A stretch of DNA of 64,000 nt. Origin: Planctomycetota bacterium (GTDB lineage: Bacteria; Planctomycetota; Planctomycetia; Planctomycetales; Planctomycetaceae). This document shows, piece after piece, positions 3,623-33,873 of this stretch. The stretch lies in the NCBI GenBank assembly GCA_037146815.1, contig JBAWWJ010000014.1, forward strand, positions 1,114 through 65,113. Direction: 5' to 3'. Below the pieces are notes generated by a model. It was not told the DNA's origin and did not search any database. It saw only the letters and a program-made list of their open reading frames with translations. Within the stretch, counting starts at the first letter, position 1. Each line of letters opens with the position of its first letter. The position numbers were made by a program, and so were the translations under genes.

Positions 3623-3678
3623 TTCGTGAATCCTTTCGATTGAGAATTCCTGATGCGTGACAAATTCGCTCGATAATT

Positions 3679-6291: not shown

Positions 6292-6299
6292 CGCAGCCG

Positions 6300-6881: not shown

Positions 6882-7079
6882 TGTGAAAATTCCTCAGCAG
6901 CGACAAGATGGCAGAGCAGGGTGCGGTGCGTAATAAGACACCATGCCTCCAGGACGCTACCGATGCTGGTGATGCAAAGCAAGCGTAAAAATCGCGAAGC
7001 GTCATTTTAGTGGCCGTAGTTGTGGCAGGATGCTGCCATCCGACGCTTAGACATGCGCCTTATTGAGTCGACTCGATTT

Positions 7080-8426: not shown

Positions 8427-8452
8427 TCCGTTCTCCAAAATGATCGGTCACG

Positions 8453-8576
8453 GATAGTCGTGGTTCGCTCCGCGAACCAACGCCGCGTTTATTATTATGG
8501 CAACCCGAAGATGCGCCTCGTCGTCAAACGTCGATAACCCTGGAAGCGTTGGTTCGCGGAGCGAACCACGACTATC
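8453..8576. repeat. REPIN family 1: two inverted 31-bp REPs GATAGTCGTGGTTCGCTCCGCGAACCAACGC (8453-8483 / 8546-8576)
   Basis: Perfect inverted pair. Each arm has the internal hairpin TGGTTCGC-TCC-GCGAACCA. Identical arms occur at 32012-32130. Confidence 0.9.
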
Positions 8577-8644
8577 TCTCGCCTCACGAATTCCGCGACA
8601 AATATCGTAACCCGTGTTGAGTGCCACCGAGACCAGACTCCCCA

Positions 8645-18523: not shown

Positions 18524-18579
18524 CCGTATCTAATCCGTTCTGTTTCAGATCGTTTCACGTCCGGTCTCAGGAACATTGC

Positions 18580-20112: not shown

Positions 20113-21810
20113 TTACTGTTTCAGCAGAGCCCGGCCAGCGAGGATTCCTAATCGACTGCTGCCGACTTCTCGCAGCAGATTGCCTGCTGAAGGAGAGTAC
20201 GAAGCGCACAACTGGCGGATGTCGTCGCGAGCCTGGAAATAGGCTTCGATGACTCGCGGATCCCATTGTTCACCAGATCCGCGACGGAAGATTTCTTCCA
20301 ATCGCTCGATCGGCATCCCCTTTCGATAAGGGCGATCGCTGACCATGGCATCAAAGCTGTCGGCCACGGCAATGATCCGAGCCATCAGCGGAATTCCGTC
20401 ACCCTTCAGTTTGTCGGGATAACCCTTCCCGTTAAACGCTTCGTGATGATGTCGTACGCCTGGCAGGATTTGCGAGAGATTTCGCAACTGACACAGGATC
20501 TGGTATCCGATCATCGGGTGCTGTTGGATCTGTCGGAATTCGTCTTCGGTCAACTGACCCGGTTTTGCCAGGATGCGATCATCGACACCCACCTTACCAA
20601 TGTCGTGCAGCAGTCCTGACAGGTAGATATCTTCCAGATCCCCGGTTTCCAGCCCGATCTGCTGGCCAATGCGACGAGCCAGTAAGGCGACTCGTTCACT
20701 GTGACCGCGCGTGTACGGGTCCTTGGCATCCAATGTGGAGACCAGCGATCGAACAAATCCCACGAGCAGTTCGTCGTGCTCATCATACAGTTCGATGTTG
20801 CGGACGTGAGTTCCCAGGATCGTGGCGATGGAGCAAATCAGGTTCGCTTCAACCGAACCGAATTCCCGGCCGCCCCGCAGGTTTGCCGCGACAATCCAGC
20901 CTCGCCGATGCTGTGGGTCCCCGATCGGGACGATCACCATATTCTTCAGGCCCGGGAAGTCCCCGCCCAGCAGCGTATGCTGCAGCTTGTTCTTCACCAG
21001 CGGCTTGCTCCAGTTGTGCGTATCAAACCGCGCCAGCAACCGGGCAAGTTCCATCTGATCAAAAGGCAGGCGTCCCTGAGACAGGAATCGCATCGAGTGA
21101 TCGGAATTTTCTACACAGATCCCGACACCAGCACATTCGATCAGCGGATACAGCCCACGCACACAGAGTTCGGCGAGTTCTTCCGATGGGCGGGACAATT
21201 GCAGGTTTTCTGTCAATCGATGCAGCAGGCTGATCTCTTCGTAGGTGTAGTCAATCTGCAGACTGAGGGCATCCAGTTCCTGCTGAAGTTCCGCTTCACG
21301 TTCACGCTGTTTCAAACTGCGGAAGGCACAGTCAAGCAATCGGACAAGCAATTGCGAATCACAGACGGGGACGGAAGTCAGTGCTTTTTCGGAATCGGCT
21401 TCATTGACGCGTGCTTCCAAAGCTGCCAGATGAAGTTCCGGAGGGAATACATCACGTGATGCCAGGACATAGCCGGCGATCAAAAGCGACTCTTTCGACG
21501 GAATGGGCACCAGGAAGTAGGTCAGTTCTTCGCTGATACGGTCGACTTCAATGGCATTGACCTGCCCCAGTCGCAGTACCAGTCGTGGTGGAACATAGCG
21601 AAGGTACTCGGCGTGCGACTGGGCAATCACGTGCGCGAATTCGCGTTCGATGATCATGCATGGTAGGCCGGTCGCATCGCTGAATTCTCGCAGAATGACA
21701 TCGGCCGGCGCATCGGCGCCCGGAGCGACCACCGTATCGGAATGAACGGAGTCGTGATCGAAGGACGTCGGTGTGTCGAGGAGCCAGGTCGTCATTTGTC
21801 GAGTTCCCAT
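20113..21810 (-). CDS. HD-GYP domain protein (putative c-di-GMP phosphodiesterase) with N-terminal sensory/GAF-like region
   Basis: KDPYTRGHSERVA, LLHDIGK, HHEAFNGKGYPDKLKG, ARIIAVADSFDAMVSDRPYR. Confidence 0.92.
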   Translation of the reverse strand: MGTRQMTTWLLDTPTSFDHDSVHSDTVVAPGADAPADVILREFSDATGLPCMIIEREFAHVIAQSHAEYLRYVPPRLVLRLGQVNAIEVDRISEELTYFLVPIPSKESLLIAGYVLASRDVFPPELHLAALEARVNEADSEKALTSVPVCDSQLLVRLLDCAFRSLKQREREAELQQELDALSLQIDYTYEEISLLHRLTENLQLSRPSEELAELCVRGLYPLIECAGVGICVENSDHSMRFLSQGRLPFDQMELARLLARFDTHNWSKPLVKNKLQHTLLGGDFPGLKNMVIVPIGDPQHRRGWIVAANLRGGREFGSVEANLICSIATILGTHVRNIELYDEHDELLVGFVRSLVSTLDAKDPYTRGHSERVALLARRIGQQIGLETGDLEDIYLSGLLHDIGKVGVDDRILAKPGQLTEDEFRQIQQHPMIGYQILCQLRNLSQILPGVRHHHEAFNGKGYPDKLKGDGIPLMARIIAVADSFDAMVSDRPYRKGMPIERLEEIFRRGSGEQWDPRVIEAYFQARDDIRQLCASYSPSAGNLLREVGSSRLGILAGRALLKQ

Positions 21811-22032
21811 GCCGTGAAAGCCGCAAGACCTCCAGCAGCGAACCCGGTGATGATCGAATTGAAACGATTTCGATTCGAATGAGCACAGGGTTTTGGAACT
21901 CTAGTTCAACTCTGGCAATGAGCAACCAGAAGTAGATCAACGAAATGCAGGGTTATGTGATGTCGGATGGCACCACCGTCGTCGCCTGCGAATTCGGTTC
22001 GATCCGAATATCCGGAATAGTCCGCAGGGTTG

Positions 22033-23049
22033 CTATTCGGTTCGTTTACCACGGTCACGCAGAAGGTCACTGACCTGCTTCAGTGTTTGCTGCTCACGTG
22101 ACGTGAGCGAGCTCATTCCATGAGCATGAACCTTGGCCAGCAGTTCATCTAACTGCTGTTCGGCCTCTTCCTGTTGTCGCCGAATTGCCTGCTCCTGCTG
22201 TTGCCGACGTCGTTCACGCCATTGTTCGACCAGCCCCGGTTGCGCTTCAGACGGCTGCGTCCCCCCGCCTGCAGGGACCGACCGGTCCAGGCTGGTATAC
22301 CCGTCGGTGAAGTCATAGCCGAGGAACGAATCTTCTTCACGGTCGATTCGCTCGTTTTCGAAGAACTCAACCAGATTCACAACAAACACCACGGCGCTCA
22401 GGAAGACCAGTGGAGTGAGGTCAAATGCCAGTCCCACCACAGCCAGCAACCCCGCCACAACCATACTGACTTGAACAGCGCATCGATTGACCAGTTCCGG
22501 GTGAATTCGAGCAGCCAGCACGGATCGCACGATTTGAGCTCCATCGAGCGGGAGCATTGGCAGCATGTTGACCAGGAACAGCATCCAGTTGACGACAAAT
22601 GTGATGACACCCAGGTCGCTGGGCAATTGCTCAAGATCAAGTTTCGTCAACGGAAGCGTAAATGGGACTAATGCTGATCGGTAGGAATCCGACGGCAAGA
22701 TCCAGGGAATGGCAAGGCAGATCACCAGGTTGACAAAAGGTCCACCAGCGGTCGTGACCACGGAAGCCCACGTCCCACGCCCCGGCTGAACCATTGCCAA
22801 TCCGCCGATCGGCGACAGGCGAATTTCGGTGGCATTTCCACCAGTCATACGGGCCAGGCAGACGTGCCCCAGTTCGTGCAGAAGAACGGATACCATCAGG
22901 ATGGCCAGAAAGGCCGCTCCGAGCATCCATCCGAGTCGAAACAGAAAAAAGGCCCCGACCAGAAAGAACGAGAGATCCATTCGTATCCGAAGCGTTCCGA
23001 GTCGAACGATCTCGAACGACGGCAGCATCCAATTCAGTCGTTCATTCAT
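22033..23049 (-). CDS. Site-2 protease family (M50) intramembrane metalloprotease
   Basis: VLLHELGH, AGGPFVN, VNMLPMLPLDG, and a C-terminal LDELLAKVHAHGMSSLT motif. Confidence 0.9.
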   Translation of the reverse strand: MNERLNWMLPSFEIVRLGTLRIRMDLSFFLVGAFFLFRLGWMLGAAFLAILMVSVLLHELGHVCLARMTGGNATEIRLSPIGGLAMVQPGRGTWASVVTTAGGPFVNLVICLAIPWILPSDSYRSALVPFTLPLTKLDLEQLPSDLGVITFVVNWMLFLVNMLPMLPLDGAQIVRSVLAARIHPELVNRCAVQVSMVVAGLLAVVGLAFDLTPLVFLSAVVFVVNLVEFFENERIDREEDSFLGYDFTDGYTSLDRSVPAGGGTQPSEAQPGLVEQWRERRRQQQEQAIRRQQEEAEQQLDELLAKVHAHGMSSLTSREQQTLKQVSDLLRDRGKRTE

Positions 23050-23381: not shown

Positions 23382-24038
23382 ATGGACATGGCCAAGCTGG
23401 TCGATTTCATGAGCAATCTGATCTACCCGATGCAGGCGATTGCAGCGGTCTATGGTCTGTTTCTGACAATTCTGGTCTTTCGCCGGATCGCTCAAAAGCG
23501 ATTTCGGACTCAGGCCACCGCCGACGATTTCCTCAACCAGGTCAGTGAGCGATTGCAGGGACGTCAATTTGATAGCGTCGCCGAATTGTGCGATTCCCCG
23601 GCTTACTGGTCAAAAGCGGTGCCACAACTGATTCTGATTGCCCTCGCCAATCGCGATCGGCCAATTGCCAAACTGCGACAACTTCTGAGTGAGACTTTCG
23701 AACGCGAAGTCCTGGCCGAACTCGATTACCAGCTCTCCTGGGTGAATACAGTCGTCAAGACGGCGCCGATGCTCGGATTGCAGGGAACTGTTCTGGGAAT
23801 GATTGCCGCGTTCGCAAAAATTGCATCCAGTCAAAGAACAGGTGTTGATCCGAGCAAGCTGGCTACGGATATCAGTTTTGCACTGATCACGACCGCCGTC
23901 GGATTGATGATCGCCATCCCGCTTGTCATGTGTATGGCATCGATGCAGGTTCGCATCGGTCGCCTGACCGATGCGGTTCAACATCAACTTGGACGATTCC
24001 TGGATGAACTCGAAGCAGCCCAGTCGAAAAAGCGATAA
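23382..24038 (+). CDS. MotA/TolQ/ExbB proton-channel protein
   Basis: Three TMs; TAPMLGLQGTVLGMI, ISFALITTAVGLMIAIP. Confidence 0.92.
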   Translation: MDMAKLVDFMSNLIYPMQAIAAVYGLFLTILVFRRIAQKRFRTQATADDFLNQVSERLQGRQFDSVAELCDSPAYWSKAVPQLILIALANRDRPIAKLRQLLSETFEREVLAELDYQLSWVNTVVKTAPMLGLQGTVLGMIAAFAKIASSQRTGVDPSKLATDISFALITTAVGLMIAIPLVMCMASMQVRIGRLTDAVQHQLGRFLDELEAAQSKKR

Positions 24039-24064
24039 ATTGACGCGGAGCGGGAGATGTTGAC

Positions 24065-24529
24065 GTGGCTAGTCGCAGTCTATTCAGAGATTCGGCGGGA
24101 TCTTTCGGCGGGAAGCGAAAGGCGGTCGAAGGAGATTTGGATATCACTCCGATGATCGATGTCACGTTCCTGCTGCTGATTTTCTTCATGGTCTCGTCCA
24201 CCATGCAGGGAAAGCCCGATCTGGATGTCCCAGTTGCTCAACATGCCATCGGGATTGATGCGAGCGGGGCTGCTGTCGTGACCGTGTTTGCTGCAGCTAG
24301 CGTCGCTGAGTCGCCTCGAATCGTCCTGGGTGATGTGCAAGGCCCCGACGGAGAATTGAGTGACATTCGACGCTTCGTCGAAGAGAAATCGCGTGAAGGA
24401 ATTCGTAAGTTCGTGATTAAGGCGGAAGGGGATGTTCCGCATGGTCTGGTCGAGGAAATCGCCAAAGCAATCAAGTCGGTTGAGGGTGTGGAATTGTACA
24501 TGGGGGTTGGTGACAAACCGGTCGAGTAA
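24065..24529 (+). CDS. ExbD/TolR family protein
   Basis: DITPMIDVTFLLLIFFMV with the conserved TM Asp; IKAEGDVPHGLV. Confidence 0.92.
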   Translation: MASRSLFRDSAGSFGGKRKAVEGDLDITPMIDVTFLLLIFFMVSSTMQGKPDLDVPVAQHAIGIDASGAAVVTVFAAASVAESPRIVLGDVQGPDGELSDIRRFVEEKSREGIRKFVIKAEGDVPHGLVEEIAKAIKSVEGVELYMGVGDKPVE

Positions 24530-24665
24530 GGTTTTCGCTTTTCACCAGATCACTTGAAGCGAGTGAGTCATGGGACGCGAGGTTTTCGGTTTCACTCACC
24601 TCCGCTTTACGCAGTAGCAACGTTCAATCCGTCAGAATCTCAAATGGATCCAGCACAGGCATAAA

Positions 24666-25460
24666 ATGGCGATTCGGTTTCGCTGCCAGCATTGTTCGGG
24701 ACTGATGAGTATTTCCAGCCGTCAGGCCGGAATGACGGTTCAGTGTCCGACCTGCGGCGAACAGACTCTCGTCCCCCTGGAAGATATTTTTAGTTCATCC
24801 CCCGACAGGAATTCGGGAACTGCCACTGAAACTGCCGTCGACGACCAACAGGAAGAGGGCTGGCAGGCACCGCCGGAGGAGTCGTTTGCGGCGTACCGCG
24901 AAAGTCGTGACGAAGATGTTCATGTCGAGCCTGAGGGGGCGATAAACGACGGGTCCAGTGAGTTTGACGACGTAGGTCAAGCTGAACAAACGACCGAAGA
25001 CGACGAGAATGAACCAGAGCCGTTTCAGTTGAAGGTCCGTCAGCGAGCCGACGACGAAATGGATTTGACGCCGATGGTGGATGTCACGTTTCAGTTGCTG
25101 ATTTTCTTCATGGTCACGGCATCATTTGCCTTGCAGAAATCAATCCAGGTCCCGACCCCTGATCCCGAAAAAAAAGGGGCGACGCAGCAGTTGCAGATTC
25201 TGGAAGACCTCGAAGGGTCGTCGATTCGAGTTCAAATTGACGCGGCAAATGTGATCACGATTGATGACGAACCACTGGCCGACCCAGCCCGTCTCGCCGA
25301 TGCTCTCAAAGATAAGATGCGAAAAGAACAGAAGACGGAAATCCTGATTTCTGCTCACGCTGCGGCATTACATCGTTCCGTCATTTCCGTGATCGATGCC
25401 GCGAATCATATTGGTATGCAAAAGATCCGCCTGATCTCACGACAGGGTAAAAGCGAATAA
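24666..25460 (+). CDS. Zn-ribbon + acidic linker + ExbD/TolR fusion
   Basis: CQHC..CPTC at the N-terminus, Glu/Asp-rich middle, DLTPMVDVTFQLLIFFMV. Confidence 0.9.
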   Translation: MAIRFRCQHCSGLMSISSRQAGMTVQCPTCGEQTLVPLEDIFSSSPDRNSGTATETAVDDQQEEGWQAPPEESFAAYRESRDEDVHVEPEGAINDGSSEFDDVGQAEQTTEDDENEPEPFQLKVRQRADDEMDLTPMVDVTFQLLIFFMVTASFALQKSIQVPTPDPEKKGATQQLQILEDLEGSSIRVQIDAANVITIDDEPLADPARLADALKDKMRKEQKTEILISAHAAALHRSVISVIDAANHIGMQKIRLISRQGKSE

Positions 25461-25462
25461 CG

Positions 25463-28400
25463 ATGCCTTCACTCGAACTTCAATATGCAGACGGTCGGGT
25501 CACGACATGCGAGTTGTCGCGAACGCAACCGTTAACGATCGGAAAGCAGTCGTTTAACGATATCTGCGTTGCGGGTGATGACGTCGGGGCGATGCATTGT
25601 CGAGTCCTTTGGAATAAGTCGGCGTTTGATGTGACTGCAGCCACGTCGGATGGAGTCGAGGTGAACGGAACAACAGTCGCTCACGCTCGGTTGAGTCCTG
25701 GTGACATCATCCGTGTCGGTAGTCTGGACCTGGTCTATCTTGATCCCACCGTTGCCGAGCCCGAACCTGATTTGCAGTTGCGAGAAATCCCGGAGGCCCC
25801 CCCGCCGCTTCCCAAGCATCGCGAATCCCCGAAGCCGACTCATGATGCCGCCCCTGCCAAGGGACGAAGTGACAAGCGGGAACCTGTTGCACCACCACAA
25901 AAAGAGACATCACTCTTCGAAGGGCCCGTCTATACAGAATCCCAGGTGATGGCGGCCTATGAAGTCGTTGCCAGTTTTGAAGAAGATTCGCTGTCACCTA
26001 CAAAGCTCAAACCGCTCCCTTCGAGCCGATCTGCTGATTCGACACATCCGCAGAAGTCGGCACGTTATGCCGGGATGGGGATGTCGCTTGGGTCTCAAGT
26101 CCGCCCAGGGGAACAAGACGCCCTGCGATCTCCTCTGGTGCTGGGACTCAGTCTTGGTGGATTGGTGCTGGTCCTGATCACGGGAATCTTCTGGTTTCTG
26201 ATCAGTCGCGAACAATCGACTCGACTCTATGACCGAGCGGTCGCAGAACTGAACGATGGCCAATATGCACAGTCAGTCACCTCGTTTGAACAGTTTCTGC
26301 AGCAGTATTCCGGGCACGCACTACATCGTCAGGCGGAACGTGGAGTAGGAAAAGCACTGATTCAAAAGGAAATTGCCGGTGGAACGCCAGCCTGGAAGAA
26401 TGGGCTCGAACAGGTCCACAGTCTGATTTCGAAGCACCGCAACGAGTCTGACTTTGCAGATCTGACTCCCGTCCTGCATCGCTATGGAGAAGAAATCGCC
26501 TTGGGGGCTGCCCGCACTGCAGCCGCAACGCGTGATGCCGAACTGTTGACGGTTTCCGAAGACGCTCAAGTCATCCTCGAACGCTATTCCGACCCGGCAT
26601 CGCCCCCCACGGCCGCTCTGAATCGAATCAAGGAAGCACGTGTGGCCGCTGTACTGGCGATCGGAAAACAAAAGATCTTCGATGACAGTATGGCCGCCAT
26701 TGATGCGGCACTTGCAGCCAACAAGCCGATGGTCGCACTCTCTGAACGCGAGAAACTCGTGCGAGTCTATGAAGGATTCGCCAGTGTCAGTCGCGTGAAA
26801 GAATCGCTTCAAAAAGCTCTCGATCTGGAGCGGTCTGTCATCAAGACCAGTGACGAGGAGCGTGCGGCCGAAACCACCGAAAAGACGGTTGCCGGATCGC
26901 CGCCAGCACTGGGAATTTTTCATACGCGGACGCGAACAGACGAGACGTCGCTTGGGCGAGTCGCATACGTGGTCGGGAAGGACTGCTGTTATGCCGTCGA
27001 CACGGTGACCGGTGAACTCGTCTGGCGACGAACGATCGGATTCGAAGCTCCGTTCTTCCCTGTCACGGCCACAGGAACACAATCGGTCGTGTTACTTTAC
27101 GATGGCTATCAGCGATCGCTCATCTGCTGTCAGCCCTTAACGGGGAAGTTGATCTGGAGACAACCTCTCGACGGACGACCGCGGTCCGCTCCGTTGATTC
27201 ACGAAGGACAGATCTATCTGCCGACCGATGACCGATCAATCTGCCGGATCGACCTTGAAGCCGGCCGACTGACGGAACGAATCACATTTTCACAAAATGT
27301 GCAGGGACCGCCGGTTCTTTCCGCAGATGGAAATCACCTGCTGGTGCCGGGCGAGATGGCGATGATCTATGCCCTTTCCATGCGTCCGCTGGCATCCGCT
27401 GCGACGACGTTTACGGATCACGCTGCGGGTGCCATCTTAGCTCCGCCACTTGGATTGGGAAAACTGTATCTTCTCTGTGAGAATGATCGGGCTGATTCCG
27501 CTCGATTGCGATTATGGAATGCCGCAAATCCCAGGCAGCCTCTTGTCGAATTAACGGCCAAGGAAATCCGCGTACGTGGGCAAGTTCGTGAATCACCTGT
27601 CTTGCGTGGAAACCAACTCATGGTGCCATCGAGCGGTGAGAGATTGGCCGCATTTTCTGTCACGGATACGGCGGGACGCGAAGGTCTGGCGCCTGTCGCC
27701 CAGTACCGAGTGACCGAAGACGAAGAAATCGATCAGCGTCGAACTGCGAATCCAGATCAAAAAGTTACCCAAAAGGTCGACGACAAATCTGAAGGGGCCG
27801 AGAATTTCCTGCCGGCTGCGGTTGCCGCACGTGCCCCCATGTATCTGGTGCTGGGCCCCGACGGACGGTTCTGGGGCGCCAGTTCTGCATTCCGACGTTT
27901 TGAATTGGGAGCGGACTCGATCCATATGGATGCGAACGCCATCGCGGTCGGGATCGCTTCACAAAAGTTGCAGCAGATCGGAGATCAATTCTTCGTCGGC
28001 CGCAAGGCTCCCTTCCATGACGCTGTGATTTTTTCATCCGTGGATCGCGACCGCATGGTCAGTCCCTGGCGAATTGTCCTGGGAACGCAGTTCAATGAAG
28101 TCATTCCGTCAAAAGACGGAGGAGCCATCGCGATTACAGAAGCAGGCCATGCTGTCTCATTAGGGGCCGATCGTTTGCGGCAGGGTGGTTTTGACCTGAA
28201 AAGTGCGGTCGAACTTCCTTTGCCCGCCAGAATCAATCAGCGACTCGTCACTTCGACCTTGCACGATGGTCGGATGTTTCTCGCGGCCAACGGTGATCAG
28301 TCTTCGCTCTGGATCATTGGAACGGCGGGGCAATTGGAGTTTTCGACAAAGCTGGGCAAGGGTGAAACTGTTCAGGCAGCAGGTGTTCTGGTCGACGATG

Positions 28401-29083
28401 GGTTGATCGTTCCGCTCCCCGGCAAATTGAAATTACTTCCGTTGGGTTCGGGCAAAAAGCCAGTGCAGGATTGGATGGCTCCCGTGGGTGAAAAGCCTTC
28501 GGCACCGTGGAAGCACATTGTGCGACTGGACACGGACGAAGTCCTTGCCTGTAACAGTGAAGGATTGCTGCAGCGCATCCAGGTTCGTACGGCCGATGTC
28601 CCGCACCTGGCGGAGTCGGCCAAACTACAACTGGAAACACCTGTGAATGTCAGTCCCGCAGTCCAAGGCGATTTCCTGCTGGCAGCGTTGGCATCGGGTC
28701 AGGTTCAACTCTTGAACTGGCGGACATTTGATCAGGACGGAAAGCGAGACTTCGATGCACCAGTTCGCGGGACATGGGCGGTCGGAACTACGTGGCTGGT
28801 CTGGGGGGGAGATGCAAAGTTGCATGCTGTCTCGAGCGGTCGCGACTTGCCACTTCAGTGGTCTCTGGACCTGAAGGGAGTGGAACTCGCAGGAAGTCCC
28901 CTGCTGAACGGAAATCAGATCTGGCTCGCCGCGCGTGATGGAACCGTGATTGCGGCCGATGTCGAAGGAAAGGAATTGCGAAGAGTTCAGGTTCCGCAGG
29001 CGTTATCGATGGGGATCAAGAAATTCGGAGATGGACTGTTTGCAATCGCGATCGACGGTGCGATGTACCGAGTCAACGAATGA
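25463..29083 (+). CDS. FHA-like domain + TM + TPR + PQQ-type beta-propeller protein (1206 aa)
   Basis: N-terminal LTIGK..MHC..VEVNG..LSPGDIIRVG; TM near aa 225-248; YDRAVAELNDGQYAQSVTSFEQFLQQY; repeated AVDTVTGELVW/TGKLIW motifs. Confidence 0.8.
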   Translation: MPSLELQYADGRVTTCELSRTQPLTIGKQSFNDICVAGDDVGAMHCRVLWNKSAFDVTAATSDGVEVNGTTVAHARLSPGDIIRVGSLDLVYLDPTVAEPEPDLQLREIPEAPPPLPKHRESPKPTHDAAPAKGRSDKREPVAPPQKETSLFEGPVYTESQVMAAYEVVASFEEDSLSPTKLKPLPSSRSADSTHPQKSARYAGMGMSLGSQVRPGEQDALRSPLVLGLSLGGLVLVLITGIFWFLISREQSTRLYDRAVAELNDGQYAQSVTSFEQFLQQYSGHALHRQAERGVGKALIQKEIAGGTPAWKNGLEQVHSLISKHRNESDFADLTPVLHRYGEEIALGAARTAAATRDAELLTVSEDAQVILERYSDPASPPTAALNRIKEARVAAVLAIGKQKIFDDSMAAIDAALAANKPMVALSEREKLVRVYEGFASVSRVKESLQKALDLERSVIKTSDEERAAETTEKTVAGSPPALGIFHTRTRTDETSLGRVAYVVGKDCCYAVDTVTGELVWRRTIGFEAPFFPVTATGTQSVVLLYDGYQRSLICCQPLTGKLIWRQPLDGRPRSAPLIHEGQIYLPTDDRSICRIDLEAGRLTERITFSQNVQGPPVLSADGNHLLVPGEMAMIYALSMRPLASAATTFTDHAAGAILAPPLGLGKLYLLCENDRADSARLRLWNAANPRQPLVELTAKEIRVRGQVRESPVLRGNQLMVPSSGERLAAFSVTDTAGREGLAPVAQYRVTEDEEIDQRRTANPDQKVTQKVDDKSEGAENFLPAAVAARAPMYLVLGPDGRFWGASSAFRRFELGADSIHMDANAIAVGIASQKLQQIGDQFFVGRKAPFHDAVIFSSVDRDRMVSPWRIVLGTQFNEVIPSKDGGAIAITEAGHAVSLGADRLRQGGFDLKSAVELPLPARINQRLVTSTLHDGRMFLAANGDQSSLWIIGTAGQLEFSTKLGKGETVQAAGVLVDDGLIVPLPGKLKLLPLGSGKKPVQDWMAPVGEKPSAPWKHIVRLDTDEVLACNSEGLLQRIQVRTADVPHLAESAKLQLETPVNVSPAVQGDFLLAALASGQVQLLNWRTFDQDGKRDFDAPVRGTWAVGTTWLVWGGDAKLHAVSSGRDLPLQWSLDLKGVELAGSPLLNGNQIWLAARDGTVIAADVEGKELRRVQVPQALSMGIKKFGDGLFAIAIDGAMYRVNE

Positions 29084-29156
29084 TACCGAGCGGACTGGTC
29101 CCGCTGGTTGTCGAAGGTCGAGCGTCAATCGAACCGTTTAGAAAGGAGCGAATTCA

Positions 29157-32009
29157 ATGAGTCATACACGAATCGGAGATCTGTGCCGACGCGTGGCTTT
29201 TTTGTTACCGCTCGTATTCTACGATTTCTCGGTTGCCGCTCAGGAGACTACGACGGAACCACCGGTCGGAAAAGTGCGGGAAGAACAGTCGACATTGCCC
29301 CGCTATCCCGACATGGTCCTGCCGGAAGCTGTCGATCTGCTGAGGGCAAAACCATTTGACTGGATCGTCTTAAAGTCGCAGGAAGTCGTAGTTGTCGATG
29401 CTGTTTCAATGAGGCCCGATCCGATCGCGCGCGTCACCATCAAATACGACGTCGCACAGCAGACCTATAATCGAATTCTGAAGAATCGTCCCTACAAGAT
29501 CGCCGAGATCGAAAGCCTGCGGCAATACAGCAAGAATGCAGATCGTGCAGAAGAATTCGATGCGATGGAGACTCGCCTGAAAGAAGAGGTCGAAAAGGCA
29601 CGCGAGCGTGCCGACTCTCTGAAGCCACAAACCTTTAAATTGCCAGTCACCCTTCGGGACGGAAGCGTCGATCCTGAATACATCCTCGATCTGCGTCATA
29701 TTGAAACCGTCATCCATTTTGAAGATCTGGTCCTGCGACGCGCGGACCAGTTGATTGCCGAAGGTCGCGTTCCCCTGGCGTACGACCTGCTGTTGCTGGT
29801 TACCCGCAGACATCGCGAAAACAACGCCTTGATTCAGTCGGAACTGGACGCTGAGGAACAGGAACTCGTCCGTCAAATCAAGTCTCTTGATGATGAGCGA
29901 ACGACGCTGCGTACATCAAAAGAGGGACTCACGACCGCGGCCAGTAAGAATGCGCCAGGATCGAAAGGACGCCTCGCCGCACTCGAAAAGACCGTCACCA
30001 GGATTGCGGTCGAAATTAAGGAAATCGAAGAAGAACTGCGCGCTGTCCGCGTCAGGCTCCGGTTCGCTCGTCCCAAGGACTTCCCCAAGCCAGACGCGGT
30101 TCGTAAGGACGATTATTACCTTCCCTCATGGCCTAAGTTTGACGAAACCTACCACAAACTGGTCTTCAAGGATGCCGATTTGCACGTTGAGCAGGGGCGG
30201 CCGGAGCCAGCATTTCGACTGCTGGAAGAATTGACCGGTGACGTCCCGGGCTTGTCCAACCGACTGGGAAAGACTGCCGAACTGTTGATCACGCCGTGCG
30301 TGGAACGACTGGAGTTTCGGCAGGCGCGACACTTCATCAATCGACTGGCCACACGCGACCCGATGAATCCCGTGATTCAAAAATGGAAAGACGAACTGAC
30401 AAACCGCACCGCTGCTGCCATCAATGAAGCTCAGACGGCGTCAGCTCAAGGTCAGCCCAAGATCGCAATCCAGACAATTGATCGAGCGGCACATATCTGG
30501 CCCGAGACACCTGGATTAAAAGAGGCCCATCGTGATCTGAACGACAAGTACCAGATTTTGCGAGTTGGCGTCTTGCGACTGGCGAGTGAACCCGTTCAAA
30601 CAGATATCAACTCTGAGGCACGCGAACGCGTTCGACTTTTGACGGAATCGACACTGTTCGAGCCTGCCAGCGTCAGCGTGAAAGGTGTTCGTTACCGGTC
30701 ATCGTTTGTTGAATCGTGGGAACCGACAGACCTGGGTCGCCGCGTGCTGTTTCGTTTGAAGATGAAACGCGCAGACTGGGAGTCGCGAGCGATCATCACG
30801 GCGGCAGATGTTTTTGATGAGATCACCGCGAAAATCAACCCCGGGAGTGATCAGTTCGACGAACGGATGGCAGGATACGTCGACGGGATTACTGTCCACA
30901 ATCCCGCAGAATTCAGTGTGATATTTCGGCAATTGCCGCTGCGTCCGGAAGCTGTCTGGCGGTTGACTGTTGGCGTTAATGACACGACTCGTTTGCTCAA
31001 CGAAGACTTTGCCTCCAGTCCCAACATGGGACGTGAAAGGTTTTCCATCCGTGAGAGTCCCTCGGGGCAAATGACCTTCGGCCGCGTTCGGATGCAGCCT
31101 GTAACGACTCGGCAACGTCGTGTCGAAGAGATCACCGAGGTCCGCTACGATTCGTGGGATCGGGCGCTGCAGGGATTGTTACGCGGTGAAGTCTCGATGC
31201 TTCCCAACGCCGAATACCGCGACCTGAAACTATTGCAGGACGACGGGCGATTCTTTGTACTTCCGTACGCGATCCCTCGGACTCATTTTCTGCTGTTCAA
31301 TCCCCGGACGAAGTCTCTGCATGACGGCCAGTTTCGCCGGGCACTGCTCCATGGAGTTCCGCGCGAACGATTGCGAAGGTCACTCGTGGAAGACTCGCCC
31401 GATTCGCTCGTTCGCTTGATCACATGTCCATTTCCCTCGAACAGCTATGGATACAGTCGGCAACTGGCACAGTTCGACTTCGATCCACCCCTCTCGGCAG
31501 CGCTGGCTCAGACGGCGAAAAAGCAGATGGGAGGCACTCTTCCCACACTGAAAATGATCTGCCCGAATGACGAACGACTACGAGGACTCTCCCTGGCCAT
31601 GATCGAAGATTGGCGTCGGATCGGAATCACGGTACGACTGCTGAATGAGAGTGATCGTGAGGATTGGGATATCTGCTATCGGACCAGCCGGTCCGTCGAA
31701 CCGCTGACAGAACTCTGGCCTCTGCTGACGCTGCGGTCATCGGCCCGGATCGACGCACTTCAGGCATTGTCGGAGCCGACTCGTCGAGGACTGCTGGAAC
31801 TGGAACGAAGTAGCGATTGGACAGGAGCGGTCAAGTTGCTGCATCGGATGCTGGCCGACCTGCTGATCGAAGCACGTTACATCCCGTTATGGGAACTCGA
31901 TGAACACCTCGTCGCTCGAAAGCACGTCAGCGGTCTTCCAGATCGACCAATCCATACCTACGACGACATTGAACACTGGAATATCCAGTCGTGGTATCCA
32001 TCAGAATGA
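29157..32009 (+). CDS. Family-5 (peptide/nickel) solute-binding domain fused to a long N-terminal coiled-coil/helical region, exported
   Basis: Signal peptide, coiled-coil aa ~110-300, then ITAADV, ALQGLLRGEVSML, FLLFNPR..FRRAL, FDPPLS..LA, YIPLWE. Confidence 0.75.
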   Translation: MSHTRIGDLCRRVAFLLPLVFYDFSVAAQETTTEPPVGKVREEQSTLPRYPDMVLPEAVDLLRAKPFDWIVLKSQEVVVVDAVSMRPDPIARVTIKYDVAQQTYNRILKNRPYKIAEIESLRQYSKNADRAEEFDAMETRLKEEVEKARERADSLKPQTFKLPVTLRDGSVDPEYILDLRHIETVIHFEDLVLRRADQLIAEGRVPLAYDLLLLVTRRHRENNALIQSELDAEEQELVRQIKSLDDERTTLRTSKEGLTTAASKNAPGSKGRLAALEKTVTRIAVEIKEIEEELRAVRVRLRFARPKDFPKPDAVRKDDYYLPSWPKFDETYHKLVFKDADLHVEQGRPEPAFRLLEELTGDVPGLSNRLGKTAELLITPCVERLEFRQARHFINRLATRDPMNPVIQKWKDELTNRTAAAINEAQTASAQGQPKIAIQTIDRAAHIWPETPGLKEAHRDLNDKYQILRVGVLRLASEPVQTDINSEARERVRLLTESTLFEPASVSVKGVRYRSSFVESWEPTDLGRRVLFRLKMKRADWESRAIITAADVFDEITAKINPGSDQFDERMAGYVDGITVHNPAEFSVIFRQLPLRPEAVWRLTVGVNDTTRLLNEDFASSPNMGRERFSIRESPSGQMTFGRVRMQPVTTRQRRVEEITEVRYDSWDRALQGLLRGEVSMLPNAEYRDLKLLQDDGRFFVLPYAIPRTHFLLFNPRTKSLHDGQFRRALLHGVPRERLRRSLVEDSPDSLVRLITCPFPSNSYGYSRQLAQFDFDPPLSAALAQTAKKQMGGTLPTLKMICPNDERLRGLSLAMIEDWRRIGITVRLLNESDREDWDICYRTSRSVEPLTELWPLLTLRSSARIDALQALSEPTRRGLLELERSSDWTGAVKLLHRMLADLLIEARYIPLWELDEHLVARKHVSGLPDRPIHTYDDIEHWNIQSWYPSE

Positions 32010-32011
32010 GG

Positions 32012-32130
32012 GATAGTCGTGGTTCGCTCCGCGAACCAACGCTTCTTAGTTGACAGACTTCTGAGGAGGAGAACACTTGAGTTGCTCTAAGAAAATGCGG
32101 CGTTGGTTCGCGGAGCGAACCACGACTATC
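32012..32130. repeat. REPIN family 1, second copy (arms 32012-32042 / 32100-32130)
   Basis: Arms identical to 8453-8576; the spacer is unrelated. Confidence 0.9.
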
Positions 32131-32172
32131 TGGCGCCACTTACCAACGCCGCCGAAAGTCGTTACCCGCATC

Positions 32173-32379
32173 GGGTGCCACTGGCGGCAGCCTTGGGCCG
32201 CCAGTGGCTTGATGACGGATGGGCAGCCGCGTGAACTTGTTCAACAGAACGTCACACGGAATCAGTCGCCTCGGATTGACTCGGTAAATTCTTCTCGCAG
32301 CTCAAACAAACGATGTGGCACTGTCCTGCCGTCGGCATCGCAAGACACTGGCTGCCCAAGGCGGCCGCCAGTGCCACCC
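32173..32379. repeat. REPIN family 3: inverted ~39-bp arms GGGTG(G/C)CACTGGCGGC..CCTTGGGC..CCAGTG (32173-32211 / 32341-32379)
   Basis: Imperfect inverted pair, with internal hairpin CACTGGCGGC..GCCGCCAGTG in the left arm. Confidence 0.75.
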
Positions 32380-32421
32380 TTAAATCCTCCTTGTCTCAAA
32401 TCATCGTCGGCGTTCGGACGT

Positions 32422-33873
32422 GTGCTGGTCCTTGCGATCCTGCTGCTCCATCTTCTCTTCTGGTCGCCGACTTACGCAAACCAGACTCTCCCTTTGGAAC
32501 TTCGCCCGTACCGAGTCCTGCTGCTTGTGGCAACCGATCTCCCGCAACAGTCAGGTCCGCGGCGAATTGATTTGCTGGAAAAAGTCCGTCAATCTGCAGG
32601 ACGTTCCATCGGGGCTCAATGGGATTTGACGATTCAGGAGGCGGACTGGTTGCAGCCCGTTTCAGCGGATGGCTTGAAGCGACTCACACCCGCGGAACTC
32701 TACAAGCGAACGGGATCGGACCGGGACAAATTCGATGTCTGGCTGGTGGCTGCCATTGGAACGAATGGTGCGGGCTTCCGCATTGACGTTCACGGGTGGC
32801 AGCCAGCTATCGAAGTCGATGCGGGAACAATCGGTCGCGACATCTACGACTGGCAAGATGTTCCAATCACCGTACTTCAGTTGAGTCACATGTCGTTTCG
32901 ACCCATTGGCAGAGTTGACGACGTTGATGGAAAGCAAGTGCAGCTGGTGATGCAGGGAGGAGCCCTTGCGATTCCTGACCCGGCATTTGCGGTGTCACGC
33001 GAATCCCAGGTTTTTACACCGCTGCTGGCCAGTCGAAATCGGGACGGAAAAATTGACCGACTGCAACCGATTCCGTGGACGTATCTCACGGCAGAAGCTG
33101 TTGATGAGACTCGTCTGAAATGCGAATTACAAAGCGGTCTACGGTCTGCGATCGGTGGCAAACAGCGAGGCCGCGTTGAAACGCTGGCCATCACAGCACT
33201 GGCGAATTCGTCCGCGACGCACGTAGAAGTGGTGACTCAATCGAAACCACAGATCCCGCTGACGGGACATCGGATTGAACTGCGTGACTCGTCAGAAATC
33301 CCGAAAGCAGACCAGCCGATCGGAGGAAAGGATGCTCATCTGATACGGACGGTTCTTACGGATCGGCGTGGACGAATCACAATCCAAGCGAACGGGGGCA
33401 AGGTCGTCTGGTTGTTTGCCTACAGTGGCAAGCACCTTCTGGCGCGCGTCCCTGTTCTTCCCGGAATGTTGCCAGAATTGCGGCTGGAAGTCCCCGATGA
33501 TTCATCACGTCTGGAGGCCGAGTCTGAATTGTACATGCTGCAGGGGCAACTGGTGGAAGCCGTGGCGGCCCGCAATACCGCAGCGGCCAAGATCCGGTCG
33601 GCGATCAAGAAAAGCGACAAGCCGCTGGCGAAAGCGGCTGAAGCAGAACTGAAACGGCAGCCGGATGCGCAAGTCTTTCTCACGCAGTTGTTGTCGATCC
33701 GAGTTCCCGCCGTAAAAGCTGCCAAAGCGAAAAAAGATCGTGCCGGGGAAGCGAGAATCAATCGGATGTGTGATGAAATGGCAGAACTGATTCAACAGTA
33801 CTTGAGTGAAGACAAACGCCGAGTGGTCCTGGAAGAATTGAAAGAGCTTTACGAGTTGGAAATTGAGAAGTAG
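32422..33873 (+). CDS. Exported hypothetical protein with C-terminal helical region
   Basis: The ORF-track start 32077 reads through two REPINs. GTG 32422 gives the signal-like VLVLAILLLHLLFWSPTYA. The start is uncertain. Confidence 0.7.
   Translation: MLVLAILLLHLLFWSPTYANQTLPLELRPYRVLLLVATDLPQQSGPRRIDLLEKVRQSAGRSIGAQWDLTIQEADWLQPVSADGLKRLTPAELYKRTGSDRDKFDVWLVAAIGTNGAGFRIDVHGWQPAIEVDAGTIGRDIYDWQDVPITVLQLSHMSFRPIGRVDDVDGKQVQLVMQGGALAIPDPAFAVSRESQVFTPLLASRNRDGKIDRLQPIPWTYLTAEAVDETRLKCELQSGLRSAIGGKQRGRVETLAITALANSSATHVEVVTQSKPQIPLTGHRIELRDSSEIPKADQPIGGKDAHLIRTVLTDRRGRITIQANGGKVVWLFAYSGKHLLARVPVLPGMLPELRLEVPDDSSRLEAESELYMLQGQLVEAVAARNTAAAKIRSAIKKSDKPLAKAAEAELKRQPDAQVFLTQLLSIRVPAVKAAKAKKDRAGEARINRMCDEMAELIQQYLSEDKRRVVLEELKELYELEIEK

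What the first reader, a model, noticed from the sequence alone, without database searches (positions are those of the whole stretch)
23382..33873. TonB-less ExbB/ExbD/ExbD motor cluster with FHA-TM-TPR-propeller and giant solute-binding proteins
Seen: closely spaced same-strand genes for ExbB, ExbD, Zn-ribbon-ExbD, a 1206-aa FHA-like/TM/TPR/PQQ-propeller protein starting 2 bp after the second ExbD stop, a 950-aa coiled-coil + family-5 SBP protein, and an exported unknown. Both ExbDs keep the TM Asp and ExbB keeps its TM Thr residues, so the proton channel looks intact. I recognise no TonB/TolA, TonB-dependent receptor, Pal/TolB, or ABC permease/ATPase. Known: the Myxococcus Agl-Glt/Nfs machines use one TolQ-like plus two TolR-like subunits with FHA-TM (GltG) and Zn-ribbon-TM (GltJ) partners. 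Inference: an uncharacterised PMF-driven periplasmic machine for macromolecule uptake, envelope remodelling or outer-membrane assembly, with the FHA-TM protein as force transducer.
Basis: partly seen in the sequence, partly recalled or inferred. Interest (0 to 1): 0.78.

Follow-up and report, generated by a model that had tools for sequence, protein, structure and literature searches.

The report
Planctomycete Tol-like proton motor gene cluster
These six genes are real and belong to an eight-gene, proton-driven envelope machine conserved across the budding planctomycetes (class Planctomycetia), built on a TolQ/TolR-type motor with new partner proteins; its job is unknown, and it is a testable candidate for their unexplained, proton-dependent uptake of large molecules.

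Summary
All six genes are present as described: ExbB/TolQ, ExbD, Zn-ribbon-ExbD, a 1206-aa FHA-TM-TPR-double-propeller protein, a 950-aa coiled-coil + SBP_bac_5 protein, and an exported unknown. The channel Thr and Asp residues are intact.

Two corrections:
- The unknown's first ~98 codons are spurious, because they run through a repeat hairpin. The likely start is GTG 32371.
- "TonB-less" holds only for Pfam. Relatives show an ancestral eight-gene order: HEAT/toroid protein, TMC (TM helix, disordered linker, new ~145-aa C-terminal domain: TolA/TonB topology), ExbB, ExbD, Zn-ExbD, FHA-propeller, SBP5, U598. In this genome HEAT and TMC lie on another contig.

The order is kept in Gimesia, Blastopirellula, Isosphaeraceae and other families. 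TMC occurs in 259/301 genomes of the class and in none of about 284 genomes from other classes. U598 folds like FlgT/TolB.

The Planctopirus limnophila genes with the same annotation pattern (Plim_1696-1701) are all non-essential by TraDIS. Orthology there rests on annotation only.

Best reading: a Tol/Agl-like heteromeric 5:1:1 motor pulling on periplasmic partners through TMC and/or the FHA-TM protein. The output is unknown. Candidates are crateriform-structure/macromolecule uptake or Tol-Pal-like envelope tethering. I rate it a new variant of a known kind.

The parts
23382..24038 (+). ExbB/TolQ-like proton-channel subunit (218 aa, presumed pentamer)
   Evidence: PF01618 E 6.8e-24. Best NCBIfam hit is TolQ at 69 bits, below its equivalog cut-off. 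PDB TolQ 2e-8 against ExbB 3e-6. Thr motifs GTVxGM and ALxTTAxGL are conserved class-wide.
24065..24529 (+). ExbD/TolR-like subunit 1 (154 aa, GTG start)
   Evidence: PF02472 E 1.4e-12. TM Asp in PMIDVTF is conserved in at least 90% of class-wide orthologues.
24666..25460 (+). Zn-ribbon-ExbD/TolR-like subunit 2 (264 aa): cytoplasmic CxxC...CxxC ribbon (24666-24776), acidic linker, TM helix with Asp, periplasmic ExbD domain (25044-25436)
   Evidence: PF02472 E 6e-23. Ribbon found in 43/48 orthologues, including other families and the displaced trio of Lacunimicrobium. PDB ExbD/TolR hits.
25463..29083 (+). FHAprop (1206 aa): cytoplasmic FHA (25463-25762), disordered linker, conserved RPGEQ..LRSPL juxtamembrane motif plus TM helix (26078-26206), periplasmic helical/TPR region (26207-26962), BamB-like propeller 1 (26963-27718), variable insert, BamB-like propeller 2 (27833-29080)
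   Evidence: Pfam FHA, PQQ_2 and Yop-YscD_cpl; NCBIfam weak YbgF/BamD/TagH hits. PDB profile hits to BamB in two regions and to FHA domains. Present in 60/61 genomes of the family. Region-by-region conservation.
29157..32009 (+). SBP5 (950 aa): signal peptide, ~450-aa coiled-coil/TPR region, C-terminal family-5 solute-binding domain (about 30624-32006); no ABC partner
   Evidence: PF00496 E 1.8e-11, 44.2 bits against a 32.4 cut-off. DppA/OppA 1e-4. Always follows FHAprop across families.
32012..32130 (.). Palindromic REP/MITE-like repeat inserted 2 nt after the SBP5 stop; not part of the machine but lies inside the operon
   Evidence: 31-bp perfect inverted arms at 32012-32042 and 32100-32130. 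RNA fold -74.9 kcal/mol. 182 blastn HSP lines for the three intergenic queries, those shown all from this spacer, on at least 11 other contigs.
32371..33873 (+). U598 (about 500 aa after start correction): signal peptide, TolB-N/FlgT-like alpha/beta domains, beta-sandwiches, C-terminal helical bundle
   Evidence: No Pfam, NCBIfam or PDB sequence hit. AF2 pLDDT 86.6, pTM 0.73. Foldseek: LPHT ring 8z5n 1e-8, FlgT 3w1e 2e-8, TolB 7mx5 2e-6, plus LpoB and CsgG. Start inferred from homologue alignment.

Best explanation
The six genes are the larger part of an eight-gene system that is ancestral to, and almost confined to, the class Planctomycetia.

Proposed mechanism:

(1) ExbB/TolQ-like subunits form a pentameric proton channel around a heterodimer of the two ExbD/TolR-like proteins. 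This would be a 5:1:1 stator, as in Myxococcus AglR5-AglQ-AglS. Proton flow through the conserved Asp/Thr sites drives rotation or a power stroke. The presence of intact channel residues is shown here; the stoichiometry is inferred from family knowledge.

(2) One ExbD carries a cytoplasmic zinc ribbon and the 1206-aa protein carries a cytoplasmic FHA domain. Together they give the motor cytoplasmic docking or regulatory handles. This step is inferred.

(3) Force leaves the motor through one or both bitopic inner-membrane partners.
- TMC has TolA/TonB topology: a TM helix, a conserved post-TM motif E..PGG.EDG.PDETLRV.SP, a disordered linker, and a novel ~145-aa C-terminal domain. In this genome it is encoded on contig C213.
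- The FHA-TM protein has a periplasmic TPR region and two propellers that form a platform.

(4) The secreted partners are the targets or cargo binders in the periplasm: the FlgT/TolB-N-like U598, the coiled-coil SBP5 protein and the HEAT/alpha-toroid protein. No outer-membrane barrel or lipoprotein is encoded with them.

(5) The physiological output is not shown. My committed guess, at about 0.35, is an envelope-spanning structure specific to Planctomycetia: the crateriform 'press-stud' complexes and the CCCP-sensitive import of macromolecules into the periplasm. Tol-Pal-like envelope tethering is nearly as likely.
For: Domains and channel residues.

Synteny. ExbB-ExbD-ExbD-FHAprop-SBP5-U598 recurs in many of 76 loci. 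The full HEAT-TMC-ExbB-ExbD-ZnExbD-FHAprop-SBP5-U598 order is seen in Gimesia aquarii, in two Blastopirellula species (families f1 and f2), in a Pirellulales MAG (f108) and, apart from U598, which falls beyond the fetched stretch, in f99 and f104 loci. A tandem TMC duplicate occurs in f105. HEAT-TMC-FHAprop-SBP5-U598 is seen in Isosphaeraceae.

The motor trio stays together, with its Zn ribbon, when it lies elsewhere in the genome (Lacunimicrobium).

Distribution. FHAprop is in 60/61 family genomes. TMC is in 259/301 genomes of the class (141/166 genera) and in 0 of about 284 genomes of other classes. The TMC family has 1508 representative clusters.

TMC model: TM helix, disordered linker, confident C-terminal domain (block pLDDT 79-94) with no PDB sequence or fold match. 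Conserved post-TM motif.

U598 fold.

No TonB_C or TolB_N in the genome.

Precedents. AglR5QS-GltG/GltJ (PMC11761067). Non-TonB transducers next to tolQ-tolR-tolR in the PVC group (PMC12204202).

Planctomycetia-specific traits. CCCP-sensitive GFP/dextran uptake and crateriform press-studs, with unknown players (PMC5394234, PMC12673574). Phycisphaeraceae lack crateriform structures and divide by fission (PMC8882080).
Against: - No direct evidence shows that any partner binds the motor. Multimer modelling was not available.
- TMC lacks the SHLS His motif of TonB/TolA, and its TM helix is not more conserved than the rest of the protein within the family.
- In several lineages the motor trio is unlinked from the other five genes, so motor coupling is inferred from frequent rather than universal adjacency.
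- The genome has nine MotA/ExbB loci (eight besides this one). Other stators could therefore serve the CCCP-sensitive uptake.
- The P. limnophila genes are non-essential (PMC10632474). This fits uptake but also fits many other roles, and their orthology rests on annotation pattern alone.
- The FHA lacks the canonical SxxH serine (AAMH), so phospho-regulation is doubtful.
- Co-transcription is untested, and a strong hairpin repeat sits between SBP5 and U598.
Confidence: 0.68

Rival explanations
1. Tol-Pal functional analogue. The system tethers or remodels outer membrane, peptidoglycan and inner membrane, for example at the bud neck. TMC would play TolA, the propellers plus the TolB-N-like U598 would play TolB, the TPR region would play CpoB, and the SBP5 domain (family of the murein-peptide binder MppA) would bind peptidoglycan peptides in place of Pal.
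For: ExbB and ExbD score best against TolQ/TolR models and PDB TolQ. U598 matches TolB and FlgT folds. There is a weak YbgF/CpoB hit, and JGI labels some homologues 'TolA-binding protein'. The genome has no canonical TolB_N. The class-wide distribution coincides with budding division (PMC8882080).
Against: No Pal-like OmpA lipoprotein lies in or near the cluster in any family. The only OmpA-like domains lie elsewhere, one of them beside a MotA. The TMC C-terminal domain has no TolA/TonB fold. The genes are non-essential in P. limnophila (PMC10632474), although Tol-Pal is also dispensable in E. coli (my own knowledge). Peptidoglycan-peptide binding by SBP5 is pure conjecture.
Confidence: 0.3
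2. One reading: a self-contained, TonB-less six-gene machine in which the FHA-TM-propeller protein is the sole force transducer.
For: The FHAprop start lies 2 nt after the ExbD2 stop. Its TM helix is its best-conserved segment within the family (0.71 against 0.57). GltG (FHA-TMH) is the modelled and two-hybrid partner of AglR (PMC11761067). P. limnophila and this genome keep just these six genes together (PMC10632474 supplement).
Against: TMC and the HEAT gene are ancestrally in the same operon and are kept in nearly all genomes of the class. TMC sits directly beside FHAprop when the motor trio is absent. TMC has the three-domain transducer layout plus a conserved post-TM motif. At class level the conservation edge of the FHAprop TM helix is small (0.45 against 0.39).
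Confidence: 0.15
3. An Agl-Glt-like surface motility or adhesion machine (focal-adhesion-type gliding, or stalk/holdfast dynamics).
For: A heteromeric TolQ + 2 TolR stator with FHA and Zn-ribbon cytoplasmic modules mirrors AglRQS/GltG/GltJ (PMC11761067). Related PVC vWA clusters were proposed to act in gliding (PMC12204202).
Against: No Glt outer-membrane barrels, adhesins or TonB-CTD domains are present. The system occurs across the class, and to my knowledge most Planctomycetia do not glide. The Zn ribbon is on ExbD, not on a TonB-like protein.
Confidence: 0.07
4. Periplasmic nutrient capture. The SBP5 protein binds peptides or oligosaccharides and hands them to an unlinked ABC importer; the motor genes are merely neighbours.
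For: The SBP_bac_5 domain is above the Pfam cut-off, with DppA/OppA similarity. The motor trio is unlinked in Isosphaeraceae and some Planctomycetaceae.
Against: SBP5 is never next to a permease or ATPase, and always lies between FHAprop and U598 across several families. It carries a ~450-aa coiled-coil/TPR extension that is atypical for transport SBPs. The motor trio is interleaved inside the cluster in f1, f2, f99, f104, f105 and f108.
Confidence: 0.08

Closest known systems
Tol-Pal system (TolQ-TolR-TolA-TolB-Pal-CpoB) of Proteobacteria
   Same: PMF-driven TolQ/TolR-type channel; these are the best-scoring models for ExbB and ExbD here. A bitopic partner with TM helix, disordered linker and globular C-terminal domain (TMC). 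Periplasmic beta-propeller, TPR and TolB-N-like fold elements are present. Dispensable in the laboratory.
   Different: Two different TolR-like subunits, one carrying a Zn ribbon. The TMC C-terminal domain is a different fold and its TM helix lacks the SHLS His. The propellers are BamB-like and fused to an FHA-TM protein. There is no Pal. SBP5 and the HEAT/toroid protein are extra. All equivalog cut-offs are missed.
Myxococcus xanthus Agl-Glt gliding machinery (AglR5-AglQ-AglS with GltG and GltJ), PMC11761067
   Same: One TolQ-like plus two different TolR-like subunits. An FHA-TM partner, a cytoplasmic zinc-ribbon module, and TPR-rich periplasmic partners.
   Different: GltG and GltJ end in TonB-CTD-like domains, which are absent here. 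The Zn ribbon is fused to ExbD rather than to a transducer. There are no Glt outer-membrane components and no sequence homology beyond the shared domains. The hosts are mostly non-gliding.
ExbB-ExbD-TonB with TonB-dependent transporters
   Same: The same motor superfamily and the same channel residues.
   Different: No TonB_C anywhere in the genome and no receptor in the cluster (a single TBDR barrel lies elsewhere). The partner set is entirely different.
PVC/Proteobacteria TPR-tolQ-tolR-tolR-vWA 'new force transducer' clusters (PMC12204202)
   Same: A heterologous TolR pair and a non-TonB transducer with TM-linker-globular layout in PVC bacteria; function unknown. This genome also has such loci (C15 vWA-TPR-ExbB-ExbD; C57 TPR-ExbB-ExbD-ExbD-?-DUF4159-TPR).
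   Different: The transducer C-terminal domain here is not vWA and the TM helix lacks the His. The FHA-propeller, SBP5, U598 and HEAT partners are not described there.
Vibrio flagellar H/T-ring proteins (FlgT) and T3SS YscD/PrgH-type FHA-TM ring scaffolds
   Same: U598 matches the FlgT/LPHT-ring fold. FHAprop has a cytoplasmic FHA-like domain, a single TM helix and a periplasmic scaffold, as in YscD (weak Pfam hit).
   Different: There is no flagellar or injectisome context. The periplasmic parts are TPR and propellers, not ring-building motifs. The similarity is at fold or architecture level only.

Membership tests
MotA/TolQ/ExbB proton channel family (PF01618) | Pfam match above the gathering score | tested here: met
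   84.5 bits against a 22.9 cut-off.
MotA/TolQ/ExbB proton channel family (PF01618) | Conserved TM Thr residues lining the pore | tested here: met
   GTVLGM and ALITTAVGL are present and at least 90% conserved in 10 class-wide orthologues.
ExbD/TolR family (PF02472) | Pfam match above cut-off in both genes, and a TM Asp | tested here: met
   48.2 and 81.7 bits against 25.4. Asp in PMIDVTF and PMVDVTF.
Ton system (ExbB-ExbD-TonB + TBDT) | A TonB_C domain protein partnered with the motor | tested here: not met
   No PF03544 in the whole genome, while controls are positive. The TMC C-terminal domain has no TonB/TolA fold hit.
Ton system (ExbB-ExbD-TonB + TBDT) | SHLS motif with His in the transducer TM helix | tested here: not met
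   No His in the TMC or FHAprop TM helices; only Ser23 and Asp19 are conserved in TMC.
Ton system (ExbB-ExbD-TonB + TBDT) | TonB-dependent receptor in the locus | tested here: not met
   None in the cluster in any genome examined. The single barrel is on C141.
Tol-Pal system | TolQ/TolR equivalog scores | tested here: not met
   TIGR02796 69 bits against 221; TIGR02801 34 and 55 bits against 127.
Tol-Pal system | TolB (TolB_N plus six-bladed propeller) | tested here: inconclusive
   No PF04052 in the genome, but the U598 model matches TolB 7mx5 (E 2e-6) and FlgT. The propellers are BamB-like and sit in a different protein.
Tol-Pal system | Pal (OmpA-like lipoprotein) in the operon | tested here: not met
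   Only two OmpA-like domains in the genome, both elsewhere. None in the conserved cluster.
Agl-Glt machinery | One TolQ-like plus two distinct TolR-like subunits | tested here: met
   This is an architectural match only.
Agl-Glt machinery | FHA-TMH and ZnR-TMH partners ending in TonB-CTD-like domains; Glt outer-membrane proteins | tested here: not met
   FHAprop ends in propellers. The Zn ribbon is on ExbD2. No TonB-CTD.
vWA-type motor-driven transducers (PMC12204202) | TM-linker-vWA protein next to tolQ-tolR-tolR | tested here: not met
   No vWA in this cluster. A VIT-vWA gene follows FHAprop only in one Schlesneria subgroup. Separate vWA/DUF4159 loci exist in this genome.
ABC-type family-5 solute-binding protein | SBP_bac_5 domain | tested here: met
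   44.2 bits against 32.4, covering profile positions 154-326 of 368. DppA 1e-4.
ABC-type family-5 solute-binding protein | Cognate permease and ATPase genes adjacent | tested here: not met
   None adjacent in any locus. The ABC-2 permease at 18436-20100 is not syntenic.
FHA phosphothreonine-binding domain | Pfam FHA match | tested here: met
   29.4 bits against 20.7. PDB FHA hits such as Rv1747 and GarA.
FHA phosphothreonine-binding domain | Canonical pThr-contacting Ser of SxxH (and GR Arg) | tested here: not met
   The consensus is AAMHCR, with Ala at the Ser position. The window protein has GK instead of GR. The residue mapping is from my own knowledge of FHA motifs.
BamB (outer-membrane protein assembly factor) | Equivalog score and lipoprotein signal | tested here: not met
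   TIGR03300 43.5 bits against 285.2. The protein is anchored by an internal TM helix after a cytoplasmic FHA domain.

The most novel reading that the evidence does not exclude
This class-wide module is the missing energiser and periplasmic core of the planctomycetal crateriform-structure complex. The TolQ/TolR/Zn-TolR motor would use the proton motive force, through TMC and the FHA-TM-propeller scaffold, to pull captured macromolecules such as dextran or proteins across the outer membrane into the enlarged periplasm. SBP5 and U598 would act as periplasmic cargo or ring components. That would explain the CCCP-sensitive, TonB-independent 'endocytosis-like' uptake whose players are still unknown.
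Probability: 0.2. Interest if true: 0.9.

Novelty: new variant of a known kind. Interest (0 to 1): 0.7.

Why it matters
Ton, Tol, Mot, Agl and GldLM show that 5:2 proton motors are reused to power very different envelope tasks. This is another, previously undescribed partner set: a transducer-like protein with a new C-terminal fold, an FHA-TM-double-propeller scaffold, an orphan coiled-coil SBP and a FlgT/TolB-like protein. It is conserved in about 86% of sampled Planctomycetia genomes and absent from the other classes of the phylum.

That distribution matches the two traits that define the class, budding division and crateriform structures. The class also has a long-standing open problem: PMF-dependent import of whole macromolecules, with no known machinery.

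Planctopirus limnophila appears to carry the cluster (Plim_1696-1701, matched by annotation only), tolerates insertions in it, and can be manipulated genetically. The hypothesis is therefore directly testable.

The result also gives names and a context to several families of 'hypothetical' planctomycete proteins.

Tried and rejected
1. Family-restricted distribution. The first protein search, the genome-contig scan and the phylum-level sample all pointed to Planctomycetaceae only. The class-level search and loci from other families overturned this.

2. TMC as a divergent TonB/TolA. There is no Pfam hit, no PDB sequence hit, no fold hit below E 0.1 and no SHLS His. I rejected membership and kept the analogy.

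3. Sequence-level confirmation of the P. limnophila orthologues. A profile search did not return a named Planctopirus protein. The genome I suspected to be Planctopirus, G173, is Lacunimicrobium album. Orthology of Plim_1696-1701 therefore rests on the identical annotation pattern and the COG1520 listing.

4. Promoter and terminator scan. Counts were at or below shuffle expectation and gave no information.

5. RNA evidence for co-transcription.

6. The genome search with the 1206-aa alignment failed twice. I used the single protein and the TMC profile instead.

7. TM-helix conservation as an argument for FHAprop over TMC. The difference is clear within the family but weak class-wide, so I did not use it as decisive.

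8. Chance adjacency or an assembly artefact for the missing TMC. I rejected this: close relatives L002 and L047 share the M50/HD-ExbB junction, and on C213 TMC is followed by an unrelated gene.

Full report
**Observation.** The + strand between 23382 and 33873 carries six consecutive ORFs. Pfam and NCBIfam identify them as follows:

| Coordinates | Product | Key evidence |
|---|---|---|
| 23382-24038 | MotA/TolQ/ExbB protein | PF01618, E 6.8e-24 |
| 24065-24529 | ExbD/TolR protein | E 1.4e-12 |
| 24666-25460 | Second ExbD/TolR protein | E 6e-23; first 37 residues form a CxxC...CxxC zinc ribbon |
| 25463-29083 | 1206-aa protein | N-terminal FHA domain, one TM helix, helical/TPR region with weak YbgF/BamD hits, BamB/PQQ-like propeller |
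| 29157-32009 | 950-aa exported protein | SBP_bac_5 domain above the Pfam cut-off |
| 32077-33873 | Unknown protein | no family hit |

- A PDB profile search resolves two BamB-like propeller regions in the 1206-aa protein, at about residues 500-750 and 965-1167, and confirms the FHA fold.
- Gaps between the genes are 26, 136, 2, 73 and 361 nt.
- Both ExbDs keep the TM Asp. ExbB keeps the GTVxGM and ALxTTAxGL Thr motifs, which are also conserved in class-wide alignments.
- By PDB sequence, ExbB is nearer to TolQ (2e-8) than to ExbB (3e-6).
- The 8.05-Mb genome has no TonB_C and no TolB_N. It has one TonB-dependent receptor barrel on another contig, and nine MotA/ExbB loci in total.

**Correction to the last gene.** The 361-nt spacer after the SBP5 stop holds a 119-bp palindromic repeat at 32012-32130.
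- The repeat has 31-bp perfect arms, folds at -74.9 kcal/mol and has many copies across the genome.
- The TTG-32077 start lies inside it, and the first ~98 codons match other copies of the repeat.
- Homologue alignment and a good signal peptide (...LLFWSPTYA|NQ) place the start near GTG 32371, giving 500 aa.

**Two more genes belong to the system.**
- A scan of species-representative genomes with a profile of the 1206-aa protein (FHAprop) returned 76 loci.
- tblastn and phmmer labelling showed the six-gene order in many of them.
- It also showed a conserved ~300-aa gene, TMC, immediately upstream of ExbB. Where the motor trio was absent, TMC lay immediately upstream of FHAprop.
- A ~570-aa secreted gene with terpenoid-cyclase-like alpha-toroid and HEAT repeats usually precedes TMC.
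- In the window's own genome these two genes lie together on contig C213, at 1275-2165 and 2177-3898 on the minus strand.
- This is a real rearrangement shared with the closest relatives, which have the same M50/HD-ExbB junction.

**What TMC looks like.**
- TMC has no Pfam or PDB sequence match.
- The AlphaFold model shows an N-terminal TM helix, about 100 disordered residues and a confident C-terminal domain (block pLDDT 79-94). That domain has no Foldseek match better than E 0.15.
- Just after the TM helix there is a nearly invariant motif, E..PGG.EDG.PDETLRV.SP. A second, Gly-rich motif lies further on.
- This layout (TM helix, disordered region with a conserved short motif, linker, globular C-terminal domain) is the one described for TolA/TonB and their 'motor box' (PMC12204202).
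- However, the SHLS histidine is absent and the C-terminal domain is unrelated.

**Distribution.**
- FHAprop is found in 60 of 61 sampled genomes of the family. The one miss is 71% complete.
- A phylum-level sample found TMC only in the window's family and in one genome of another family, so at first the system looked family-specific.
- A class-level sample changed that: 259 of 301 genomes (141 of 166 genera, more than ten families) have TMC. None of about 284 genomes from other classes does.
- I fetched 15 loci from other families. The results were:
  - the complete HEAT-TMC-ExbB-ExbD-ZnExbD-FHAprop-SBP5-U598 order in families f2, f105 (with TMC duplicated) and f108; in the f99 and f104 loci all genes but U598 were seen, because the fetched stretch ended at or just past SBP5;
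  - HEAT-TMC-FHAprop-SBP5-U598 in f100 and f115 (one f100 locus showed no HEAT gene and another no U598).
- Exact-sequence look-ups name some of these genomes: Gimesia aquarii, Blastopirellula sediminis, Blastopirellula sp. J2-11, Lacunimicrobium album, two Isosphaeraceae and a Pirellulales MAG. By established taxonomy, the class is therefore Planctomycetia.
- Where the motor trio is not in the cluster, as in Lacunimicrobium, an ExbB-ExbD-Zn-ribbon-ExbD trio with intact Asp lies elsewhere.
- The zinc ribbon is present in 43 of 48 ExbD2 orthologues.
- The TMC family has 1508 representative clusters in a 1.84-billion-protein library.

**The unknown protein U598.** With a 17-sequence alignment it modelled at pLDDT 86.6 and pTM 0.73.
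- The model has alpha/beta domains, beta-sandwiches and a C-terminal helical bundle.
- Foldseek found the Vibrio LPHT-ring/FlgT structures (1e-8, 2e-8) and Acinetobacter TolB (2e-6). Weaker matches were LpoB, CsgG and other TolB-N-like folds.

**Experimental data from the literature.**
- In the Planctopirus limnophila TraDIS study (PMC10632474), the annotated run is: Plim_1696 MotA/TolQ/ExbB, Plim_1697 ExbD, Plim_1698 ExbD, Plim_1699 hypothetical (listed among the COG1520 BamB-like genes), Plim_1700 solute-binding family 5, Plim_1701 hypothetical.
- This run has exactly the pattern seen here.
- All six genes are non-essential, with insertion indices of 0.087-0.119. Plim_1698-1701 have no hits outside the PVC group.
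- I could not check orthology by sequence.

**Mechanism.**
- Shown:
  - an intact TolQ/TolR-type channel with two different TolR-like subunits;
  - two bitopic inner-membrane partners and three secreted partners;
  - tight linkage that has been maintained across the class.
- Inferred from family knowledge and from the Agl-Glt model (PMC11761067):
  - a 5:1:1 stator;
  - force taken off by a TM helix docked on the pentamer;
  - cytoplasmic FHA and Zn-ribbon modules acting as docking or regulatory sites.
- TMC is the more TolA/TonB-like candidate transducer. FHAprop has the GltG precedent, and its TM helix is its best-conserved segment within the family (0.71 against 0.57). Class-wide the difference is small. 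Either or both may couple to the motor.
- The FHA domain lacks the canonical SxxH serine.

**Output.**
- The cluster never includes an outer-membrane barrel, a lipoprotein, an ABC permease or a receptor.
- Its phyletic pattern coincides with budding and crateriform structures, which Phycisphaeraceae lack (PMC8882080).
- Macromolecule uptake into the periplasm of Gemmata is abolished by CCCP. P. limnophila shows dextran binding to fibres that arise from crateriform structures. Crateriform structures look like outer-membrane-to-inner-membrane press-studs, and the players are still unknown (PMC5394234, PMC12673574).
- I rate the crateriform/uptake reading at about 0.35 within the general model and about 0.2 in its strong form.
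- I rate a Tol-Pal-like tethering role at about 0.3.

**Comparison and novelty.**
- The system fails the defining tests for Ton (no TonB_C, no SHLS His, no receptor), Tol-Pal (equivalog scores missed, no Pal), Agl-Glt (no TonB-CTD, no Glt outer-membrane parts) and the vWA transducer clusters of PMC12204202 (no vWA).
- It works like all of them at the motor level.
- The same genome also holds vWA-TPR-ExbB-ExbD and TPR-ExbB-ExbD-ExbD-?-DUF4159-TPR loci.
- I found no paper describing this cluster.
- I class it as a new variant of a known kind.

**Limits.**
- No multimer modelling was available.
- The promoter/terminator scan was uninformative.
- P. limnophila orthology rests on annotation only.

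Noticed in passing
window 32012-32130 (also about 8453-8627): 119-bp palindromic REP/MITE-like element with 31-bp perfect arms (-74.9 kcal/mol) inserted 2 nt after the SBP5 stop. Many copies lie across the genome's contigs. It creates a spurious N-terminal extension of the next ORF and could act as an attenuator or an mRNA stabiliser inside the operon.
   Followed up: partly
own genome C15:38462-42023 (L099) and C57:50-8936 (L097): Two further non-TonB stator loci: vWA-TPR-ExbB-ExbD, and TPR(1042 aa)-ExbB-ExbD-ExbD-145 aa-DUF4159-TPR. They resemble the TPR-tolQ-tolR-tolR-vWA clusters of PMC12204202.
   Followed up: partly
own genome C266 (L100) 2892-9499: TPR-ExbB-(unlabelled ORF)-ExbD lies next to an 855-aa secretin carrying an STN (secretin/TonB N-terminal) domain, in a genome that lacks TonB_C.
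   Followed up: no
own genome C41 (L098) 2253-9463: A MotA/ExbB-like gene with no adjacent ExbD, followed by an acyltransferase-3 gene and a 1525-aa protein with an inverse-autotransporter beta-domain.
   Followed up: no
L014, L015, L020, L034 (Schlesneria MAGs), just downstream of FHAprop: In one Schlesneria subgroup a ~825-aa VIT-vWA protein follows FHAprop in place of SBP5 and U598. This links the system to the vWA-type partners.
   Followed up: partly
L012, L016, L021, L022, L028, L069, L071, L074: In another Schlesneria subgroup the motor trio next to FHAprop is a divergent paralogous set (ExbB only ~38% identical, while FHAprop is ~55%). It still has a Zn-ribbon ExbD, which suggests the motor module was replaced.
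   Followed up: no
L087 9966-11986 (family f105): TMC is duplicated in tandem upstream of ExbB.
   Followed up: no
L013 5882-9764: A separate 457-aa BamB-like propeller protein and a PAS-PAS-SpoIIE (PP2C) phosphatase lie directly upstream of FHAprop. This may bear on regulation of the FHA domain.
   Followed up: no
own genome C141:1009-2409: This is the only TonB-dependent-receptor barrel in an 8-Mb genome with no Pfam TonB_C. Its energiser is unknown.
   Followed up: no
window 20113-23049 (- strand): An HD-GYP-type HD_5 protein and an M50 peptidase with DUF6576 lie upstream and divergent. They are syntenic only in the closest relatives (L002, L047), which marks the rearrangement breakpoint that removed HEAT and TMC.
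   Followed up: partly
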